Part shown: positions 1,042 through 41,758 of the stretch, one piece after another
How the letters are laid out: each line of letters begins with the position of its first letter
How positions within the stretch are numbered: the stretch's first letter is position 1
NCBI RefSeq assembly: GCF_058153355.1
Contig: NZ_CM177019.1
Strand: one strand, 5' to 3'
DNA: 64,000 nt
Notes under the pieces: generated by a model
Seen by the model: the letters and a program-made list of their open reading frames with translations, nothing else
Told to the model about the DNA's origin: nothing
The model's database searches: none
Position numbers and translations under genes: made by a program

Positions 1042-2529
1042 TCAGGCCTCCAGGCTTATCCAGATGGTTTTCAGTTCGGTGAATTTTTCAAGGGCGTGCA
1101 GGGATTTGTCGCGACCGTTGCCGCTCTGCTTATAGCCGCCAAACGGCACGGTCATATCACCGTCGTTGTAGTTATTGACGAAGACGGAACCGGCTTTCAG
1201 GCGGCGACTCATGCGGTGCGCGCGGGAGAGGTCGCGTGTCCATACCGCCGCGCCAAGTCCGTACTGGCTGTCGTTGGCAAGCTGTAGCGCCTGCTCTTCT
1301 GCTGTGAAACGCGTGACCACCAGCACCGGGCCGAAAATCTCTTCGCGGCTTAAGGACGCATTCGGGTCTACATCCACAAAGATGGTCGGGCCGATGGCGG
1401 CAGCCAGCTCGGCATTACGACCATCCAGCAGCAGTTGCCCTGTGCTTTCGCCTTCCCGAATAAAGCTATGCACCGAGTCAGCGTGGGCGCAGTCGATTAA
1501 GGTGCCCATGGTGGTCGCGGGATCAAGCGGATGCCCCGGCTGCCAGTTTTGCGCCTGCTGTTTTAACAGGGCTAAGAACTCATCGGCGATGCTCTCTTCC
1601 AGCAACAAACGCGTTCCGGCGATGCACACCTGGCCCTGGTTGTAGAAGATACCTGCGGCTGTCGCGCTCGCGGCTTTTTGCAGATCCGGGCAGTCAGCGA
1701 AAACGATGTTGGCGCTTTTGCCGCCCGCTTCCAGCCAGACGCGTTTCATGTTGCTGTCGCCTGCATCTTTCAGCAGTTGTTTCCCGGTGCGGGTCGAGCC
1801 GGTAAAGGCGATAACGTCGATATCGTTATGACGCGACAGCGCCTGGCCCGCTTCATGACCAAAACCCGTCACCACGTTCAGCACACCATCCGGCAGACCG
1901 GCCTCTTTCGCCAGCCCGGCAAGACGAATCGCACTAAGCGGTGATTTTTCCGACGGCTTCAGGACGACGCTGTTCCCTGACGCCAGCGCCGGGCCGAGTT
2001 TCCAGCAAGTCAGCAGCAGCGGGAAGTTCCACGGCACGATGGCGGCAATCACGCCGACCGGTTCACGCACGATCATCGCCAGCTCATGGCTACTGGTGGT
2101 CGCCACTTCGCCATACACTTTGTCGATCGCTTCGGCGTACCAGCGAATGGCGCGCGCCGCGCCGGGAATATCATCACGCAGACTGTGACGAATCGGTTTG
2201 CCGGTGTCGAGAGTTTCCAGCAGTGCCAGCTCTTCGGCGTTGGCTTCCATTAAATCGGCGAGTTTATTCAGTACCGCTTTACGTTTTGCCGGAGAAGAGT
2301 GTGACCAGTCGCCGCGTTCAAATACGCCGCGTGCTGCGCTCACCGCACGGTCGATATCGACGCTCTTGCCGCGGGCAATTTTCGCCAGCGGTGCCTGGGT
2401 GGCCGGATCAACGGTTTCAAAAGTTTCATTTTCCGCCGCAGCAGTATATTCACCGTTAATAAATAAGCGGGTTTCAATGGCGAGACTTAACGCTTTATCC
2501 TGCCAGTAAGCCAGATGATGAAAATTCAT
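1042..2529 (-). CDS. puuC: gamma-glutamyl-gamma-aminobutyraldehyde dehydrogenase (aldehyde dehydrogenase family)
   Basis: ORF track 1042..2625; start moved to internal Met (MNFHHLAYWQDK) matching known N-terminus; 495 aa. Confidence 0.9.
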   Translation of the reverse strand: MNFHHLAYWQDKALSLAIETRLFINGEYTAAAENETFETVDPATQAPLAKIARGKSVDIDRAVSAARGVFERGDWSHSSPAKRKAVLNKLADLMEANAEELALLETLDTGKPIRHSLRDDIPGAARAIRWYAEAIDKVYGEVATTSSHELAMIVREPVGVIAAIVPWNFPLLLTCWKLGPALASGNSVVLKPSEKSPLSAIRLAGLAKEAGLPDGVLNVVTGFGHEAGQALSRHNDIDVIAFTGSTRTGKQLLKDAGDSNMKRVWLEAGGKSANIVFADCPDLQKAASATAAGIFYNQGQVCIAGTRLLLEESIADEFLALLKQQAQNWQPGHPLDPATTMGTLIDCAHADSVHSFIREGESTGQLLLDGRNAELAAAIGPTIFVDVDPNASLSREEIFGPVLVVTRFTAEEQALQLANDSQYGLGAAVWTRDLSRAHRMSRRLKAGSVFVNNYNDGDMTVPFGGYKQSGNGRDKSLHALEKFTELKTIWISLEA

Positions 2530-33920: not shown

Positions 33921-36596
33921 TTACTTCAACATATTACGAATGACATAATGCAAAATGCCGTCGTTCTGGTAGTAGGTCAACTCCGTCGCGGTGTCGATAC
34001 GACAACGGCAGGGTACGACTTCCTGGCTACCATCCGCGCGCGTAAACGTCACCGGAACCGTCGCACCGGGTTGTAGACTTTGCAGATCGACAATATCAAT
34101 CTTCTCTTCCCCGATTAGCCCTAACGTTTTACGCGTCACGCCTTGCGGAAATTCCAGCGGCAGGATGCCCATGCCAATTAAATTCGAACGGTGAATTCGT
34201 TCAAACGATTCGGCAATCACAACACGAATACCAAGCAGACGCGGACCTTTTGCTGCCCAGTCACGGCTGGAGCCTGATCCATACTCTTTCCCGGCAATCA
34301 CCGCCAGCGGCGTTTGCTCCTGCTTATAGCGCATCGCGGCATCATAAATAGAGACGACATCACTGTCAGGTAGATGCCGCGTCATCCCCCCTTCAACGCC
34401 AGGCACCATTTCATTACGGATGCGAATATTGGCGAAGGTGCCGCGCATCATCACTTCATGGTTACCACGCCGCGAACCGTAGGAGTTAAAGTCTTTTCGC
34501 TCAACACCCCGACCTTGTAGATATCGCCCCGCCGGGCTATCGGGCTTAATGCTGCCCGCCGGAGAAATGTGGTCAGTGGTAACCGAATCCCCCAGCATTG
34601 CGAGGATCCGCGCACCGTGAATATCTTCCACAGGTGCTGGTGTTGCCTGCATTTCATCAAAGAAAGGCGATAAGCGAATATAGGTTGAATCTTCCTGCCA
34701 ACCGTAGGTATCGGATCGTGTGACGTTAATTTCCTTCCACTCTGCTGTGCCTTCAAAAACTTCTGCGTACTCTTTGCGGAACATTTCTGTGGAGACTTGT
34801 TCTACCGCACGGGCAATTTCTTGTGCCGATGGCCAGATATCTTTCAGATATACCGGATCGCCTTTACGATCGTGACCAATAGGCTCAGAAGCGAGGTTAA
34901 TATTCATATTTCCCGCCAGCGCATAGGCAACCACCAGCGGCGGCGAGGCCAGCCAGTTAGTTTTAACCAGCGGATGGATACGGCCTTCAAAGTTACGGTT
35001 GCCGGACAGCACCGCACCGACGGTTAAATCGCCTTTTTTGATTGCCGTTTCGATAGGATCGGGCAGCGGCCCAGAGTTACCAATACAGGTGGTACAACCG
35101 TATCCCACAAGGTTAAATCCCAGTTCATCCAGATACGGTGTCAGTTTCGCTTTTGCCAGATAATCAGAAACGACTTTCGAGCCTGGTGCCAGCGACGCTT
35201 TGACCCACGGTTGCCGCTTGAGGCCCAGAGTTACAGCTTTTTTCGCCAGCAAACCAGCGGCCATCAGCACACTTGGGTTAGAGGTGTTGGTGCACGACGT
35301 TATCGCAGCAATGACCACCGCGCCATCAGGTAACTGATACTGATGTCCGTTCATAACATAATCGACCGGCTGGCGATCTTTATGCGTGGCATTTACTTCC
35401 AGTTCGTTACTGGCGGCAAATGCTTTTGGTACATCGGGCAGTGCAACGCGATCCTGTGGGCGTTTTGGCCCTGCCAGGCTCGCTTCAACGTCATTCATAT
35501 CCAGTTCTAACGTACTGGTAAAAATCGGTTCATCGCCCGGGTTACGCCACATGCCCTGCGCTTTGGCATATTTTTCGACCAACTCGACCTGATCTTCGCT
35601 GCGCCCGCTTAAACGCATGTAATCGAGGGTGACAGCATCGATTGGGAAGAAGCCACAGGTGGCACCATATTCTGGCGACATATTGGCAATGGTGGCGCGA
35701 TCCGCCAGCGGTAGTGAATCCAGCCCATCACCATAAAATTCGACGAATTTCCCCACCACGCCATGTTTGCGCAGCATTTGGGTAACGGTGAGAACCAGGT
35801 CTGTGGCGGTAATACCTTCACGTAATTTTCCGGTGAGTTTAAAGCCCACTACGTCCGGGATAAGCATGGAAACCGGCTGGCCTAACATTGCGGCTTCGGC
35901 TTCGATCCCACCAACGCCCCACCCCAGCACGCCAAGGCCGTTGATCATGGTGGTGTGCGAGTCAGTACCAACGAGTGTATCCGGATAAGCAATCCATTCA
36001 CCGTCCTGCAATTCGCTCCACACTGCTTTGCCGAGATATTCGAGGTTAACCTGATGGCAAATGCCTGTGCCTGGCGGCACGACGCTAAAACGACTGAACG
36101 CCTGCTTTCCCCATTTCAGGAACACATAACGTTCGTGGTTGCGCTCCATTTCCAGGCGCACGTTTTCTTCAAATGCCTCATCATCACCAAAACGATCGAC
36201 GGTCACCGAGTGGTCAATGACCAGGTCGACCGGTGAGAGCGGGTTAACCTTTGCAGTATCGCCGCCGAGGCGTTTAACCGCTTCGCGCATTGCCGCCAGA
36301 TCAACAACGGCAGGTACGCCGGTAAAGTCCTGCATCAGCACCCTTGCCGGGCGGTAGGCAATTTCACGGTCAGCATGGGCATTTTTCAGCCATCCCACCA
36401 GCGCGTAGATATCCTCTTCGGTAACCGAGTTACCATCCTGCCAGCGCAGCAGGTTTTCGAGCAAAACTTTGAGTGACTTAGGCAGACGGGTGATATCGCC
36501 CAGTGATTTGGCAGCAAGCGGCAGGCTGTAGTAGTGGTAAGTTTTATCTTTGGCCTGCAACGTGTCCTTACTGGCTTCTCGTAGGGTTGACGACAT
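33921..36596 (-). CDS. acnA: aconitate hydratase A
   Basis: 891 aa; aconitase family; synteny. Confidence 0.95.
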
Positions 36597-36736
36597 AGCT
36601 CCTCCTTAATGACAGGGTTGCGAAGCCCTGATTCTCTTCAGGGTGAATATTAAAGATAACACAAACATTGCGTAACGATTTGATAACAACCCAAATTGAT
36701 AAAAGAGGAGAAACCTTGTGGCAAAGCAAATGAAAA

Positions 36737-36752
36737 CCCCGCCGCAGCGGGG
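36737..36752 (-). terminator. hairpin ccccgc-cgca-gcgggg followed by T-run on the minus strand
   Basis: Sits 8 bp downstream of the 26-codon minus-strand ORF. Confidence 0.5.
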
Positions 36753-36759
36753 TCAGGGA

Positions 36760-36840
36760 TCAGTGAGTAATGATCCAGAGGAGTTCGGCCCAGAAGAGCA
36801 TCGACAGAGAAAATGCGCCCATCCAGGACCAATATTTCAT
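36760..36840 (-). CDS. candidate 26 aa hydrophobic small protein (MKYWSWMGAFSLSMLFWAELLWIITH)
   Basis: ATG to TGA, single TM-like peptide, followed by a terminator hairpin; too short for the ORF track. Confidence 0.3.
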   Translation of the reverse strand: MKYWSWMGAFSLSMLFWAELLWIITH

Positions 36841-36968
36841 ATTTGTGTTGATCATAGGCTACACCCTTAACGGTTATTACTTTGTGTTGAGATAACTCAA
36901 CCTGTTATTGCTGCGGTGTATTAAAAGCCCTTTAATTCATTAAAAATGGGTAATAAGAATGATGATAA

Positions 36969-37157
36969 TTATTGTTTCGGCTGATCATCTTCAGCAAACA
37001 GTTCTATAAAGGCTTGCTGCTGCGTTGTTAGTTGCCAGTCGTCTGGAATAACGACGGAACATTCCCGTTTCGTTACTGGTTCATTGTCACTATGCTGACA
37101 TAATGGTGACGACTCCAGTTGCTCCTGACCGACCATAGTTATCCCCACACTTTCCAA
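36969..37157 (-). CDS. yciX: small protein of unknown function
   Basis: 62 aa ORF in the cysB-acnA intergenic region, where K-12 carries ymiA-yciX (from memory). Confidence 0.5.
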   Translation of the reverse strand: MESVGITMVGQEQLESSPLCQHSDNEPVTKRECSVVIPDDWQLTTQQQAFIELFAEDDQPKQ

Positions 37158-37267
37158 ATCAGCAGTGCGACAACCACCCAGAAAAGTGCAGAACCAAGAA
37201 ATACCGCTAGCCAGGCTTTGCGTTTTAATTCAGGGTCCCGGCGGGGTTCCTGATTTCCAGAAGGCAT
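37139..37267 (-). CDS. ymiA: small membrane protein
   Basis: 42 aa MPSGNQEPRRDPELKRKAWLAVFLGSALFWVVVALLIWKVWG (alternative start 37279); overlaps yciX by 19 nt. Confidence 0.5.
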   Translation of the reverse strand: MPSGNQEPRRDPELKRKAWLAVFLGSALFWVVVALLIWKVWG

Positions 37268-37597
37268 TGCTAACCTCATATAATCGCCATCACTTATCAG
37301 CAAGACGTTGAACGATTGGTGTAATTAATCATAAGATGAGACAAATCCTAAAGAAACTTTAGTCAAAAATCCAGCGAATTTACGAATCGTCTCCAGTGAA
37401 TAATTCAATCTTTTGACCTGAAATAGATATTTGAAAACTGGAGTTTGCGAGGCGGGTAATTAGACACTACTTTACAGGTAATTTACCCTATAAATATGAG
37501 GGATAAAAATATTGTGCACGGTATACAAATAAGCAACAAAAGAGAATATATTCCGGCACCTTCGCTACATAAAAGGTGCCGAAAATAACGCAAGAAA

Positions 37598-38596
<999 letters not shown>

Positions 38597-38781: not shown

Positions 38782-41379
38782 TTATTTTTTCCCTTCAACC
38801 CATTTGCCATCAACATAAAATGCTGACCAGCCAGTCGCCTTTCCGTCTTTTTCCGAAGAGACATATTGCTGTTTGGTTTTACGGCTAAAGCGAACCATGG
38901 TCTTATTACCTTCCGGATCCTGCTGTGGCGCATCGGCCAGATAACGCAGTTTTTCCGGCAGACGGTCGCGGAAGCGATAAAGCTCTTCCACCAGTGGCGC
39001 ACGTGTTTCACGCGATTTCGGGAAGGTATTGGCCGCCAGGAACACACCGGCAGCACCGTCACGCAGCACGAAATAAGCATCTGATTTTTCGCACGGCAGC
39101 TCCGGTAATGGCACCGGATCTTCCTTCGGTGGTGCCACTTCGCCGTTACGTAAAATCTTACGTGTGTTTTTACACTCTTCGTTAGTGCAGGCCATGTATT
39201 TACCGAAACGCCCCATTTTCAGGTGCATTTCAGATCCACATTTTTCACACTCAACGATCGGGCCGTCATAACCTTTAATGCGGAATTCGCCCTCTTCGAT
39301 CTCGTAACCGTCGCAGGTTGGGTTATTACCACAGACATGCAACTTACGTTTCGGATCGATGAGATAGCTGTCCATCGCCGTGCCGCATTTCGGGCAACGA
39401 CGTTTTGCGCGCAGCGCGTTGGTTTCAGCGTCTTCACCTTCCAGCACGTTCAGCACTTCGTTTTCCGGCACCAGGTTGATGGTGGTTTTGCAACGCTCTT
39501 TCGGTGGCAGAGCGTAGCCGGAACAGCCAAGGAATACCCCGGTGCTCGCTGTGCGAATCCCCATTTTGCGACCACAGGTCGGGCAGTCAATGCTGGTCAG
39601 AACCATCTGGTTCGGGCGCATACCACCCTCTTCGGGATCTTTTTCAGCTTTATCTAACTGCTGGGTGAAATCCGAGAAGAAGTGATCCAGTACAGCTTTC
39701 CACTCTGCTTCGTGATTTGCCACCTGGTCGAGGCTGTTTTCCATCTGCGCGGTGAAGTCGTAGTTCATTAACTCGCGGAAATTCTCTTCCAGGCGATCGG
39801 TGACGATTTCGCCCATTTTTTCCGCATAGAAACGACGATTTTCTACTCGCACATAGCCACGATCCTGAATGGTCGAAATGATCGACGCATAGGTAGAAGG
39901 ACGACCGATACCGCGTTTTTCCAGCTCTTTGACCAGCGATGCTTCACTGAAACGGGCTGGCGGCTTGGTAAAGTGCTGGGCTGGTGTCAGTTCAACGAGC
40001 GTCAGAGCATCGCCTTTATCGACTGCCGGTAAGATACGATCTTCATCGCCTTTACGCAGCGCAGGCATCACTTTCGTCCAGCCATCAAAGCGCAAAATAC
40101 GACCGCGTGCTTTCAGGCGGAAATCGCCCGCACCAACGGTCAGCGTCGTGGAGTCATATTTCGCTGGGGTCATCTGGCAGGCAACGAACTGACGCCAGAT
40201 TAACTGGTACAGTTTCTGCGCATCTGCTTCCATATCCTTCAGCGATTCCGCCATCACATTGACGTCAGAAGGACGAATCGCTTCGTGCGCTTCCTGTGAG
40301 TTTTCTTTGCTGGCGTACTGATTCGGACTTTCCGGCAGATATTTCTTACCAAAATTATCGCTGATATAACCGCGAACCATATTTACTGCGTCCTGACTCA
40401 GGTTGGTGGAGTCGGTACGCATGTAAGTGATATAGCCTGCTTCATACAAACGCTGCGCCATCATCATGGTTTTTTTCACGCCAAAACCAAGACGGGTGCT
40501 GGCAGCTTGTTGCAGCGTAGAGGTAATAAAAGGAGCGCCAGGTTTACTGGTTGTCGGTTTGTCTTCACGTTCCAGCACGCTGTAGCGCGCTTTTTCCAGC
40601 AGACTTACCGCAGCCTGAGTTTGTTCTTTGTTGACCGGGCGGAACGGTTTGTCGTTCTGATGAGTCACCTGCAACGCCAACGCATCACCAGATGGCGTGG
40701 TCGTGCTGGCATCGACTTCCCAGAACTCTTCCGGTACGAACGCTTTAATTTCACGCTCACGCTCGACCACCAGGCGGACCGCCACCGACTGCACACGACC
40801 TGCAGACAGACCACGAGCGATCTTTTTCCACAGCAGCGGCGAAACCATATATCCCACCACGCGGTCCATAAAGCGACGCGCCTGCTGGGCATTAACACGA
40901 TCAATATTCAGCTCACCTGGTTTGTTAAATGCCTGGCGGATCGCGTTTTTAGTAATTTCGTTAAACACCACTCGGCTATAGCGCGCATCATCACCACCAA
41001 TCACTTCCCGCAGGTGCCATGCAATGGCTTCCCCTTCGCGGTCAAGGTCGGTTGCGAGATAGATGTGGTCTGCTTTTTCAGCCAGTTGTTTCAGTTCAGA
41101 GACGACCTTCTCTTTACCAGGCAGCACTTCATAGTGCGCCTCCCAATTGTGCCACGGGTCAACCCCCATACGGTTGACGAGAGCGCCACGTTCATCCTTT
41201 TTAGGCTTTTTAGCCGTCTTGGTGGAGGTAGAGTCGGCACTCTTTTTGGCAGCTGAGCCACTGGTCGGCAAATCGCGGATGTGACCGACGCTGGATTTCA
41301 CCACGTAGTCACTACCCAGATACTTGTTGATCGTTTTGGCTTTTGCCGGGGACTCAACGATGACAAGAGCTTTACCCAT
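38782..41379 (-). CDS. topA: DNA topoisomerase I
   Basis: ORF 38782..41421; start at [17 protein letters not shown] gives 865 aa; C-terminal Zn-ribbon Cys clusters. Confidence 0.95.
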
Positions 41380-41758
41380 ATTCACCTTACCTAATTTGAT
41401 TCTTCCAGGAATGCGTCGCACGTTGATAAACCTTCCACTGGCAACGAGTTACCGATATGGACTCGTTCTCTGCGGATATCAACCCCTTGTCGTGACTCTG
41501 TTCACGAAAATTCAGGTGACTGAGTTAACAGGTCTTGGCCTACAGGCGCTATAGCACGACGGAATTTTGGTCGAATGTCAAGCAAATCTATTGCCAGATT
41601 GACGAAAGCGTCACACTGTACCTGATAAAATCCGATACGCAACTTTATTAGCATGCAAAATCCAAAGTTGCCAGTAAGGCGCTCTTGCCACCAGCGTGGT
41701 ATATTTGTCTGCAAGCCATGCCTGGCGTAGACTAATGTCCTTGTTTAAGGAGTAAATA

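What the first reader, a model, noticed from the sequence alone, without database searches (positions are those of the whole stretch)
36737..37279. Stack of overlapping small ORFs between cysB and acnA, including a 26-codon hydrophobic ORF with its own terminator
The intergenic region holds a 42 aa single-TM ORF (ymiA-like), a 62 aa ORF overlapping it by 19 nt (yciX-like), and further downstream a 26-codon ORF (36760..36840, MKYWSWMGAFSLSMLFWAELLWIITH) followed within 8 bp by a GC-rich hairpin and T-run. The last one is too short to appear in the ORF track but has the look of a genuine small membrane protein.
Basis: partly seen in the sequence, partly recalled or inferred. Interest (0 to 1): 0.25.

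Follow-up and report, generated by a model that had tools for sequence, protein, structure and literature searches.

The report
Known small membrane protein gene ymiC
The 26-codon hydrophobic ORF is the 3' part of ymiC, an already annotated and experimentally confirmed 31-residue E. coli membrane protein, the last gene of the magnesium-stress operon ymiA-yciX-ymiC, so the finding is correct but ordinary.

Summary
The window is E. coli topA-cysB-ymiA-yciX-ymiC-acnA, all on the minus strand. The three ORFs exist, but they lie in tandem and do not overlap.

- **yciX:** its conserved, annotated start is an ATG 2 nt after the ymiA stop. The 19-nt overlap comes from picking an upstream TTG.
- **The 26-codon ORF (36760..36840):** it is the 3' part of ymiC (36760..36855, 31 aa; RefSeq WP_001310756.1, K-12 b4741; Pfam PF23694, NCBIfam NF041484). 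The upstream ATG, with a GGTG Shine-Dalgarno, is the conserved start.
- **Coding test:** pN/pS is 0.35 in frame with 0 stops. The other five frames give 0.50-1.78 with 10-53 stops.
- **Terminator:** the hairpin is real and its stem covaries between genera.
- **Published work:** epitope tagging, Ribo-RET signal, PhoQP-dependent low-Mg induction, membrane localisation, and no deletion or overexpression phenotype.
- **Rfam STnc180:** this 'sRNA' (202.7 bits) is this mRNA segment.

Side observations:
- 21% of complete E. coli genomes carry a 14-nt deletion that destroys the ymiC terminator.
- A conserved box plus hairpin upstream of ymiC is unexplained.

Verdict: already known, low interest.

The parts
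37139..37279 (-). ymiA, a small single-pass membrane protein. RefSeq aa from 37279. The universally conserved start is the ATG at 37267 (42 aa).
   Evidence: RefSeq and K-12 CDS. Pfam PF22868 scores 125.9 bits. NCBIfam NF000536 scores 96.8 bits, and its 42-position model matches residues 5-46. The 42-aa ATG is present in 15 of 15 orthologs with an invariant GAGG 5 nt upstream. The 46-aa ATG is absent in 6 of 15.
36969..37136 (-). yciX, 55 aa. Its ATG lies 2 nt after the ymiA stop, which suggests translational coupling. The C-terminal motif W.L(T/S)..QQ.AFI..F.EDD..KQ is conserved.
   Evidence: RefSeq and K-12 CDS. An ATG 1-3 nt after the ymiA stop is present in 13 of 15 orthologs. No Pfam or NCBIfam model matches.
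36907..36923 (-). Conserved box AATACACCGCAGCAAT (invariant TACA..CAGCAAT), 49-61 nt upstream of the ymiC start. Function unknown.
   Evidence: Invariant or nearly invariant columns in the 23-sequence alignment. The box is found in every ortholog. It is absent together with ymiC in Citrobacter.
36886..36901 (-). Hairpin GTTGAG/ttat/CTCAAC, which follows the box. The structure is conserved and the stem sequence is not.
   Evidence: One search detects it. Each of the 23 sequences folds a hairpin here with a different stem. Four of 5 pairs change on both sides, and 74% of cells are paired on an alignment that is not structure-aware.
36862..36866 (-). Shine-Dalgarno-like GGGTG, 6 nt before the ymiC ATG.
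   Evidence: A GGTG-type motif lies 5-9 nt before the upstream ATG in most of the 23 orthologs. No such motif precedes the internal ATG at 36840.
36760..36855 (-). ymiC, a 31-aa single-pass membrane protein (MINTNMKYWSWMGAFSLSMLFWAELLWIITH).
   Evidence: RefSeq WP_001310756.1 and K-12 b4741. Pfam and NCBIfam scores are above cut-off. pN/pS is 0.35 with 0 stops in frame. Tagging, Ribo-RET and membrane localisation are published.
36727..36754 (-). Intrinsic terminator of the ymiA-yciX-ymiC transcript: stem 36754..36735, then the T-tract TTCATTTG.
   Evidence: -19.2 kcal/mol. It is the only consensus structure RNAalifold finds. 86% of cells are paired and 7 of 8 pairs show compensatory changes. 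Adams 2021 report an RNA 3' end less than 200 nt downstream of ymiC.
36726..36928 (-). Match to Rfam RF02079 STnc180. It covers the box, the hairpin, ymiC and the terminator. It is an mRNA segment, not a validated small RNA.
   Evidence: 202.7 bits against a gathering score of 50. Sittka 2008 saw no small RNA on Northern blots, only 500-2000-nt species, which they called 'likely processed mRNA'.
37310..37365 (-). Probable operon promoter upstream of ymiA. It contains an invariant TTTAGGATTT block with weak PhoP-box-like half-sites at 11-bp spacing, and a -10-like TATGAT.
   Evidence: Conserved block in the 15-ortholog alignment. Transcription is PhoQP-dependent according to reporters. The PhoP-box pattern match itself is not significant: 172 matches against 141 expected. 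This is inferred.
36646..36700 (-). acnA P2 promoter block (GTTGTTATCAAATCGTTAC ... TGTGTTATCTTTAAT), downstream of the ymiC terminator. It gives context and is not part of the operon.
   Evidence: The block is invariant across genera. P2 is mapped at -50/-51 with a -10 of GTTATCTT.

Best explanation
The region holds the three-gene operon ymiA-yciX-ymiC, which lies between cysB and acnA.

Shown here:
- ymiC is a 31-codon gene (36760..36855, minus strand) whose reading frame, length (30-34 aa) and KYWSW...S.LFW.[QE]..W motif are under purifying selection in Enterobacteriaceae.
- It always sits between ymiA/yciX and acnA.
- It starts at the upstream ATG, which has a GGTG-type ribosome-binding site.
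- It is followed 5 nt later by an intrinsic terminator whose stem covaries between genera.

Shown by others:
- The protein is made and is in the membrane.
- Its synthesis and the operon's transcription rise at low Mg2+ in a PhoQ-dependent way, from a promoter upstream of ymiA.
- Deleting or overproducing YmiC has no growth phenotype.

Inferred:
- YmiC is an N-in single-pass inner-membrane helix. Lys7 is on the cytoplasmic side, and a conserved Glu/Gln lies in the helix.
- Like other PhoP-induced small membrane proteins (MgrB, MgtS, PmrR), it most likely acts by binding and modulating a larger membrane protein under Mg2+ limitation. The partner is unknown.
- The terminator ends the operon and insulates the acnA P2 promoter from upstream transcription.
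- The Rfam 'sRNA' STnc180 is simply this part of the mRNA.
For: - Identity: 5,421 of 5,426 complete E. coli genomes carry the locus, annotated ymiA, yciX, ymiC.
- Family membership: Pfam PF23694 87.5 bits and NCBIfam NF041484 66.3 bits.
- Coding selection: pN/pS is 0.38 in 6 genera and 0.35 in 23 sequences, with 0 in-frame stops. The other frames give 0.50-1.78 and 10-53 stops. Codon-position differences are 0.32, 0.20 and 0.48.
- Start codon: Met6 is kept in only 5 of 23 sequences, while an upstream ATG with GGTG 5-9 nt before it is conserved.
- Terminator.
- Synteny from YmiC-anchored look-ups: topA-cysB-ymiA-(yciX)-ymiC-acnA-ribA in all 5 places shown for 3 divergent members.
- Literature: SPA tag (PMC6001520). 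Ribo-RET increase of at least 3-fold, PhoQP-dependent operon reporter, GFP-YmiC at the cell periphery, and no phenotype (PMC11429745).
- STnc180 is not a discrete small RNA (PMC2515195).
Against: - No partner or phenotype is known for YmiC, so the trans-acting modulator role rests only on analogy.
- ymiC is dispensable in nature. It is absent from Citrobacter loci and from E. albertii.
- 21% of E. coli genomes lack the terminator, so insulation from acnA is not essential.
- The conserved box and hairpin upstream of ymiC are not explained by a simple 'last gene of an operon' model.
- The PhoP-box match upstream of ymiA is statistically weak.
Confidence: 0.85

Rival explanations
1. ymiC and its terminator act in cis on acnA. 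Transcripts coming from upstream either stop at the terminator or read through into acnA. A ribosome finishing ymiC only 5 nt before the stem would hinder hairpin formation, so ymiC translation would raise read-through. This would be a upstream-ORF or insulator role, in addition to or instead of a role for the peptide.
For: - The stop codon lies 2-9 nt before the terminator stem in 19 of 23 orthologs.
- ymiC is always immediately upstream of acnA.
- Adams 2021 list ymiC-acnA among candidate upstream-ORF pairs with a 3' end less than 200 nt downstream.
- From my own recollection of Cunningham et al. 1997, a distal acnA promoter P1 starts 407 bp upstream of acnA, about window 37003 inside yciX. 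Its transcripts would carry ymiC as a leader. I could not verify this in the held library.
- A natural 14-nt deletion removes the terminator in 1,143 of 5,421 E. coli genomes.
Against: - The whole peptide, not a few codons, is under purifying selection and is membrane-localised. That pattern fits a functional protein.
- No conserved alternative (antiterminator) pairing exists. RNAalifold finds only the terminator.
- One ortholog has its terminator 62 nt from the stop, and three lack a T-tract.
- acnA keeps its own invariant P2 promoter in species without ymiC.
- The operon reporter work did not examine acnA.
Confidence: 0.15
2. The element is a regulatory small RNA (STnc180), or a dual-function RNA, that base-pairs with targets through Hfq. 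The ORF would be secondary.
For: - Strong Rfam match, 202.7 bits.
- cDNAs were recovered in the Salmonella Hfq co-immunoprecipitation study.
- The invariant box and covarying hairpin upstream of the ORF are RNA-like features with no coding explanation.
Against: - Sittka 2008 could not detect a small RNA and saw only 500-2000-nt species.
- Conservation inside the match has a codon pattern.
- The Rfam helices inside the CDS and the outer helix show little or no covariation: 50-78% of cells paired.
- A reporter for the region directly upstream of ymiC had negligible activity.
Confidence: 0.06
3. One reading: an independent 26-codon gene that starts at the ATG at 36840.
For: An in-frame ATG exists at 36840, and translation could start there at some level.
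Against: - That Met is M in only 5 of 23 orthologs (V 6, A 4, I 3, L 3, H 1, T 1) and has no Shine-Dalgarno.
- The Pfam model spans residues 1-31.
- The published and annotated product is 31 aa.
Confidence: 0.04
4. A chance ORF in an intergenic spacer.
For: ORFs of 26-31 codons are common by chance. There are 96 ORFs of at least 20 aa in the 6 kb around the site.
Against: Frame conservation, curated family models and direct protein detection.
Confidence: 0.01

Closest known systems
YmiC (E. coli K-12 b4741; Pfam PF23694; NCBIfam NF041484)
   Same: It is this gene. The 31-aa sequence is identical to the published one, the position between yciX and acnA is the same, and scores are above both curated cut-offs.
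   Different: Nothing differs in the protein. This window's terminator has a full TTTT tract where K-12 has TTGT, and there are 15 substitutions against K-12 over 737 nt.
PhoP/PhoQ-induced small membrane proteins (MgrB, MgtS, PmrR)
   Same: They are short single-pass inner-membrane proteins induced at low Mg2+ in a PhoQ-dependent way. This is the presumed mode of action: binding a larger membrane protein.
   Different: There is no sequence relationship. No partner and no deletion or overexpression phenotype is known for YmiC. The analogy is an inference.
Rfam RF02079 STnc180 (enterobacterial 'sRNA')
   Same: The covariance model matches 36726..36928 end to end.
   Different: The family was never validated as a small RNA. 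Most of its conservation is codon conservation of ymiC. Only the terminator and the 5' hairpin behave as conserved structure.
Upstream-ORF and leader-peptide controlled termination (for example mdtU-mdtJI in Adams 2021, or classical attenuators)
   Same: A short translated ORF is followed closely by a terminator upstream of a larger gene. The authors list it as a candidate.
   Different: There is no conserved antiterminator and there are no obvious regulatory codons. The peptide is conserved along its whole length and is membrane-inserted. The downstream gene has its own promoter after the terminator.
Type I toxins (small hydrophobic peptides such as DinQ, TisB, Ibs)
   Same: Small size and a single hydrophobic helix.
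   Different: Overexpressing YmiC has a negligible effect on growth, unlike DinQ in the same study. No conserved antisense ORF or RNA signal was found: the reverse frames contain 10-32 stops.

Membership tests
YmiC family (Pfam PF23694 / NCBIfam NF041484 equivalog) | Profile score above the curated cut-off over the full length | tested here: met
   Pfam 87.5 bits (cut-off 27), residues 1-31 of 31. NCBIfam 66.3 bits (cut-off 42).
YmiC family (Pfam PF23694 / NCBIfam NF041484 equivalog) | ORF of about 30-34 aa with invariant K-Y-W-S-W, S18 and W22, kept in frame across genera | tested here: met
   23 non-redundant sequences are 30-34 aa with 0 in-frame stops and pN/pS 0.35. Invariant columns are listed.
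YmiC family (Pfam PF23694 / NCBIfam NF041484 equivalog) | Position between ymiA/yciX and acnA | tested here: met
   Samples anchored on acnA, on the acnA promoter and on YmiC all show it.
YmiC family (Pfam PF23694 / NCBIfam NF041484 equivalog) | The protein is made and is located in the membrane | not testable with these tools
   Published: SPA tag, Ribo-RET signal and GFP-YmiC at the cell periphery. The hydropathy of the best 19-aa window, 1.4-1.9, is consistent.
YmiA family (Pfam PF22868 / NCBIfam NF000536) | Profile score above the curated cut-off | tested here: met
   125.9 bits (cut-off 27) and 96.8 bits (cut-off 30).
YciX (a RefSeq name only) | Match to a curated profile | tested here: not met
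   No Pfam or NCBIfam hit. The identity rests on the RefSeq and K-12 annotation and on the conserved C-terminal motif in orthologs.
Rfam RF02079 STnc180 | Covariance-model score above the gathering threshold | tested here: met
   202.7 bits against 50, model positions 1-208.
Rfam RF02079 STnc180 | A discrete, stable small non-coding transcript | not testable with these tools
   The literature says no. It failed small-RNA Northern blots and gave 500-2000-nt species.
Rfam RF02079 STnc180 | The consensus secondary structure is supported by covariation | tested here: inconclusive
   Supported: terminator (86% paired, 7 of 8 pairs compensatory) and 5' hairpin (74%, 4 of 5). Not convincingly supported: outer helix (50-55%) and the three helices inside the CDS (67-78%, few compensations). 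RNAalifold keeps only the terminator.
Rho-independent (intrinsic) terminator | GC-rich stem-loop followed directly by a T-tract, conserved as a structure | tested here: met
   20 of 23 orthologs; compensatory changes. The in vivo 3' end is known only from the literature.
Leader peptide / transcription attenuator | A conserved alternative (antiterminator) structure that competes with the terminator | tested here: not met
   RNAalifold on 23 sequences predicts only the terminator. No upstream segment complementary to the 5' arm was seen in the alignment.
Leader peptide / transcription attenuator | The ORF's stop codon lies within ribosome reach of the terminator | tested here: met
   The gap is 2-9 nt in 19 of 23 sequences. 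Any consequence for termination is untested.

The most novel reading that the evidence does not exclude
The ymiC ORF and its terminator are a translation-sensitive gate between the PhoPQ-driven ymiA operon (and any distal acnA promoter) and acnA. The natural 14-nt terminator deletion, carried by about 21% of complete E. coli genomes including Nissle 1917 and the type strain ATCC 11775, fuses acnA transcriptionally to that operon. Aconitase A expression at low Mg2+ would then differ between E. coli lineages. Separately, the invariant box and hairpin upstream of ymiC may be an undescribed RNA control element.
Probability: 0.12. Interest if true: 0.4.

Novelty: already known. Interest (0 to 1): 0.1.

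Why it matters
For the finding itself, very little.

The re-examination yields three small, practical points:
- Rfam STnc180 should be read as a protein-coding mRNA segment.
- The E. coli ymiA start in RefSeq (46 aa) is less well supported by conservation than the 42-aa start.
- The ymiC terminator is polymorphic in E. coli: intact, T-tract interrupted as in K-12, or deleted in about a fifth of genomes. This offers a natural experiment on whether the Mg2+-stress operon is insulated from acnA.

Tried and rejected
- **Protein word-index search with YmiC:** I replaced it with a profile search of 1.84 billion representatives, which found only 19 clusters.
- **PhoP-box pattern search:** too degenerate to be evidence. 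It gave 172 matches against about 141 expected.
- **SD-sequestering helix:** the Rfam outer helix, ACACC pairing with GGUGU, is rejected. About 50% of cells are paired, there is no covariation, and the box stays constant where the SD changes.
- **Sigma-70 promoter directly upstream of ymiC:** no consensus hit on the minus strand, and the published reporter was negative.
- **BoxA-like resemblance:** ACTCTTTAATAA just 5' of the box resembles rrn boxA as I recall it. It is seen only in Enterobacter/Klebsiella-type sequences and not in E. coli, so I did not pursue it.
- **Trp-codon attenuation:** YmiC has four Trp. I rejected this because there is no antiterminator and the Trp residues are spread along the helix.
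- **Type I toxin:** rejected because overexpression has no effect.
- **Antisense ORFs on the plus strand** (36718..36870 and 36770..36895): rejected, since the reverse frames carry 10-32 stops across orthologs.
- **Supplements:** those of Adams 2021 and Vellappan 2025 held nothing usable on ymiC. Mendoza-Vargas 2009 only re-confirmed acnA P2.
- **acnA P1 at -407:** a search for P1acnA found no paper in the held library, so this rests on my memory of Cunningham et al. 1997.

Full report
**What is in the sequence.** The window around the finding is the enterobacterial topA-cysB-...-acnA region, all on the minus strand. The genes are acnA 33921..36596, cysB 37598..38572 and topA 38782..41421. The 1,011 bases between cysB and acnA match 5,421 of 5,426 complete E. 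coli genomes at 95% identity or more. The best match is 99.9% to strain 2013C-4282. RefSeq annotates three genes there: ymiA, yciX and ymiC. In window coordinates these are ymiA 37139..37279 (46 aa), yciX 36969..37136 (55 aa) and ymiC 36760..36855 (31 aa). K-12 MG1655 has the same three genes as b4522, b4523 and b4741.

**Check of the observation.**
- The 42-aa ORF, the 62-aa ORF and the 26-codon ORF are all present as described.
- The terminator-like hairpin GACCCCGC/tgcg/GCGGGGTT lies at 36754..36735 and starts 5 nt after the stop codon. It folds at -19.2 kcal/mol.
- The '19-nt overlap' depends on a TTG at 37157 that only the longest-ORF rule selects. The annotated yciX start is the ATG at 37136, 2 nt after the ymiA stop. 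An ATG 1-3 nt after the ymiA stop recurs in 13 of 15 orthologs.
- The three ORFs are therefore tandem and not stacked. ymiC lies 113 nt beyond yciX.

**Identity of the 26-codon ORF.** It is the 3' part of ymiC.
- The 31-aa product scores 87.5 bits against Pfam PF23694 (cut-off 27) and 66.3 bits against the NCBIfam equivalog NF041484 (cut-off 42).
- VanOrsdel et al. 2018 list exactly this sequence (MINTNMKYWSWMGAFSLSMLFWAELLWIITH, K-12 1335572-1335667, between yciX and acnA) among small proteins detected by chromosomal SPA tagging. They note it was also positive in a ribosome-profiling screen (PMC6001520).
- Vellappan et al. 2025 found at least a 3-fold more Ribo-RET start-site reads at low Mg2+. 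They also found PhoQ-dependent transcription from a region upstream of ymiA and negligible promoter activity directly upstream of ymiC, and they infer an operon ymiA-yciX-ymiC. GFP-YmiC sits at the cell periphery, and neither deletion nor overexpression has an effect (PMC11429745).

**Independent test of coding.** I fetched orthologous loci without selecting on ymiC.

The first sample was anchored on the AcnA N-terminus.
- A YmiC-like ORF is present upstream of acnA in 5 of 8 Enterobacteriaceae (Enterobacter spp. and Superficieibacter).
- It is absent from two Citrobacter loci, which keep ymiA and yciX.
- It is absent from E. albertii and from all 7 other Enterobacterales sampled.

The second sample was anchored on the invariant acnA P2 promoter block in metagenome contigs. 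It added about 20 distinct variants.

Results on 23 non-redundant sequences (the 6-genus result is the same):
- The ORF is 30-34 aa.
- Pooled pN/pS is 0.35 (pS 0.69, pN 0.24) with no in-frame stop. The other five frames give 0.50-1.78 and 10-53 stops.
- Pairwise differences at codon positions 1, 2 and 3 are 0.32, 0.20 and 0.48.
- K-Y-W-S-W, S18 and W22 are invariant.
An ATG 6-9 codons before the motif, preceded by a GGTG-type Shine-Dalgarno at 5-9 nt, is conserved.

The protein therefore starts at 36855.

**Breadth and position.** A profile search of 1.84 billion representative proteins found only 19 clusters at E of 0.001 or better. Several are frameshifted or stop-loss E. coli variants. Look-ups for three divergent members all returned topA-cysB-ymiA-(yciX)-ymiC-acnA-ribA. 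The family is narrow and its position is fixed.

**The terminator.**
- In the 23-sequence alignment the terminator is the only consensus structure RNAalifold predicts.
- 86% of cells are paired and 7 of 8 pairs show compensatory changes.
- Nineteen sequences have a canonical terminator starting 2-9 nt after the stop. One has it 62 nt away, and three have a GC hairpin without a T-tract.
- Adams et al. 2021 report an RNA 3' end less than 200 nt downstream of ymiC and list ymiC-acnA as a candidate upstream-ORF pair.
- acnA P2 is mapped at -50/-51 with a -10 of GTTATCTT. It lies in an invariant block about 80 nt beyond the terminator.

**STnc180.** The stretch 36726..36928 matches Rfam RF02079 at 202.7 bits. 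Sittka et al. 2008, who named it, could not detect a small RNA. They saw 500-2000-nt species and concluded it was probably a processed mRNA.

I projected the Rfam structure onto my alignment:
- The terminator and a 5' hairpin behave as conserved structure.
- The outer helix, which would pair ACACC with the ymiC Shine-Dalgarno, is paired in only about 50% of cells and does not covary.
- The helices inside the CDS are weakly supported.

The family's conservation is therefore mostly the ymiC codons plus a terminator.

**How it most likely works.**
- *Shown, here or in the literature:* a PhoQP-dependent promoter upstream of ymiA drives ymiA, yciX (start abutting the ymiA stop) and ymiC. The transcript ends at the intrinsic terminator. 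YmiC is a membrane protein.
- *Inferred:* YmiC is an N-in single-pass helix with a conserved Glu/Gln in the bilayer. By analogy with MgrB, MgtS and PmrR, it modulates a larger membrane protein at low Mg2+.
- *Main rival (about 0.15):* a cis role on acnA. The stop codon is within ribosome reach of the terminator, and, as I recall Cunningham et al. 1997, a distal acnA promoter starts inside yciX. Against this, there is no conserved antiterminator, and the whole peptide is under selection.

**Noticed on the way.**
1. A 14-nt deletion (window 36731..36744) removes the 3' arm and T-tract of the terminator in 5 of 33 E. coli-type metagenome contigs. Diagnostic 44-mers split the complete genomes into 1,143 with the deletion (including Nissle 1917 and ATCC 11775) and 4,278 with the hairpin. 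The sum, 5,421, equals the number of genomes that carry the locus. The deleted allele has no stable structure: -4.7 kcal/mol, z = 0.03. K-12 has the hairpin with a TTGT tract.
2. An invariant box, TACAC..CAGCAAT (36923..36907), and a covarying hairpin (36901..36886) lie 49-61 nt upstream of the ymiC start in every ortholog. They are missing together with ymiC in Citrobacter. Their function is unknown.
3. The 42-aa ymiA start is universal and has an invariant GAGG. The RefSeq 46-aa ATG is missing in 6 of 15 orthologs.
4. E. albertii has a clean deletion of all three ORFs that leaves a promoter remnant and the terminator.

**Verdict.** The object is a known, annotated and experimentally characterised gene, so the finding is of low interest.

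Noticed in passing
window 36731..36744 (minus-strand sequence CGGCGGGGTTTTCA): A natural 14-nt deletion removes the 3' arm and T-tract of the ymiC terminator. It is present in 1,143 of 5,421 complete E. coli genomes, including Nissle 1917 and the type strain ATCC 11775, and in 5 of 33 E. coli-type metagenome contigs. The deleted allele has no stable fold. K-12 keeps the hairpin, but its T-tract is interrupted (TTGT).
   Followed up: yes
window 36886..36923 (minus strand): An invariant box AATACAC..CAGCAAT is followed by a hairpin whose stem sequence differs between genera. It lies 49-61 nt upstream of the ymiC ATG in all 23 orthologs and is absent as a block with ymiC in Citrobacter. It is not a sigma-70 consensus and not an SD-sequestering helix. 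Its function is unknown.
   Followed up: partly
window 37267 and 37279 (ymiA start codons); 37291..37293 (CTG): The RefSeq ymiA start (46 aa, 37279) lies inside the Shine-Dalgarno of the 42-aa start and is absent in 6 of 15 orthologs. The 42-aa ATG (37267), with an invariant GAGG, is present in 15 of 15. A further upstream in-frame ATG (MISD..., 53 aa) is present in 13 of 15 other genera but is CTG in E. coli.
   Followed up: partly
L003 (Escherichia albertii) about 2240..2500: cysB is followed directly by a remnant of the ymiA promoter (GGGATTTGTCTCATCTT) and by the ymiC terminator (GACCTCGCTACGGCGAGGTTTTC). This is a clean deletion of ymiA, yciX and ymiC. Citrobacter loci L002, L006 and L085 keep ymiA and yciX but lack the box, the hairpin, ymiC and the terminator.
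   Followed up: partly
window 36597..36647 (minus strand, acnA P2 leader): A conserved CCCTG...CAGGG...CCCTG triple can form two mutually exclusive hairpins, -9.2 and -7.1 kcal/mol when folded alone. The 3' hairpin ends just before the acnA Shine-Dalgarno. It could be a leader switch or a 5' stabiliser.
   Followed up: no
window about 37370..37440 (minus strand, between the cysB terminator and the ymiA promoter): Further strongly conserved non-coding blocks (CAAATATCTATTTCAGGTCAAAAGATTGAATTATT and CGTAAATTCGCTGGATTTTT) lie upstream of the presumed PhoP-dependent promoter. No function is assigned.
   Followed up: no
P0003 (63 aa); L097; L147 / P0012: Rare disrupted ymiC alleles. One is a stop-loss variant on the terminator-deletion background, which runs into the acnA promoter block. 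The others are two frameshifted copies, one of them on a contig with 2.25x coverage and so possibly a sequencing error.
   Followed up: no
window 37551..37584 (minus strand): A strong terminator-like hairpin (13 pairs) lies directly after cysB, so the ymiA operon is transcriptionally separate from cysB.
   Followed up: no
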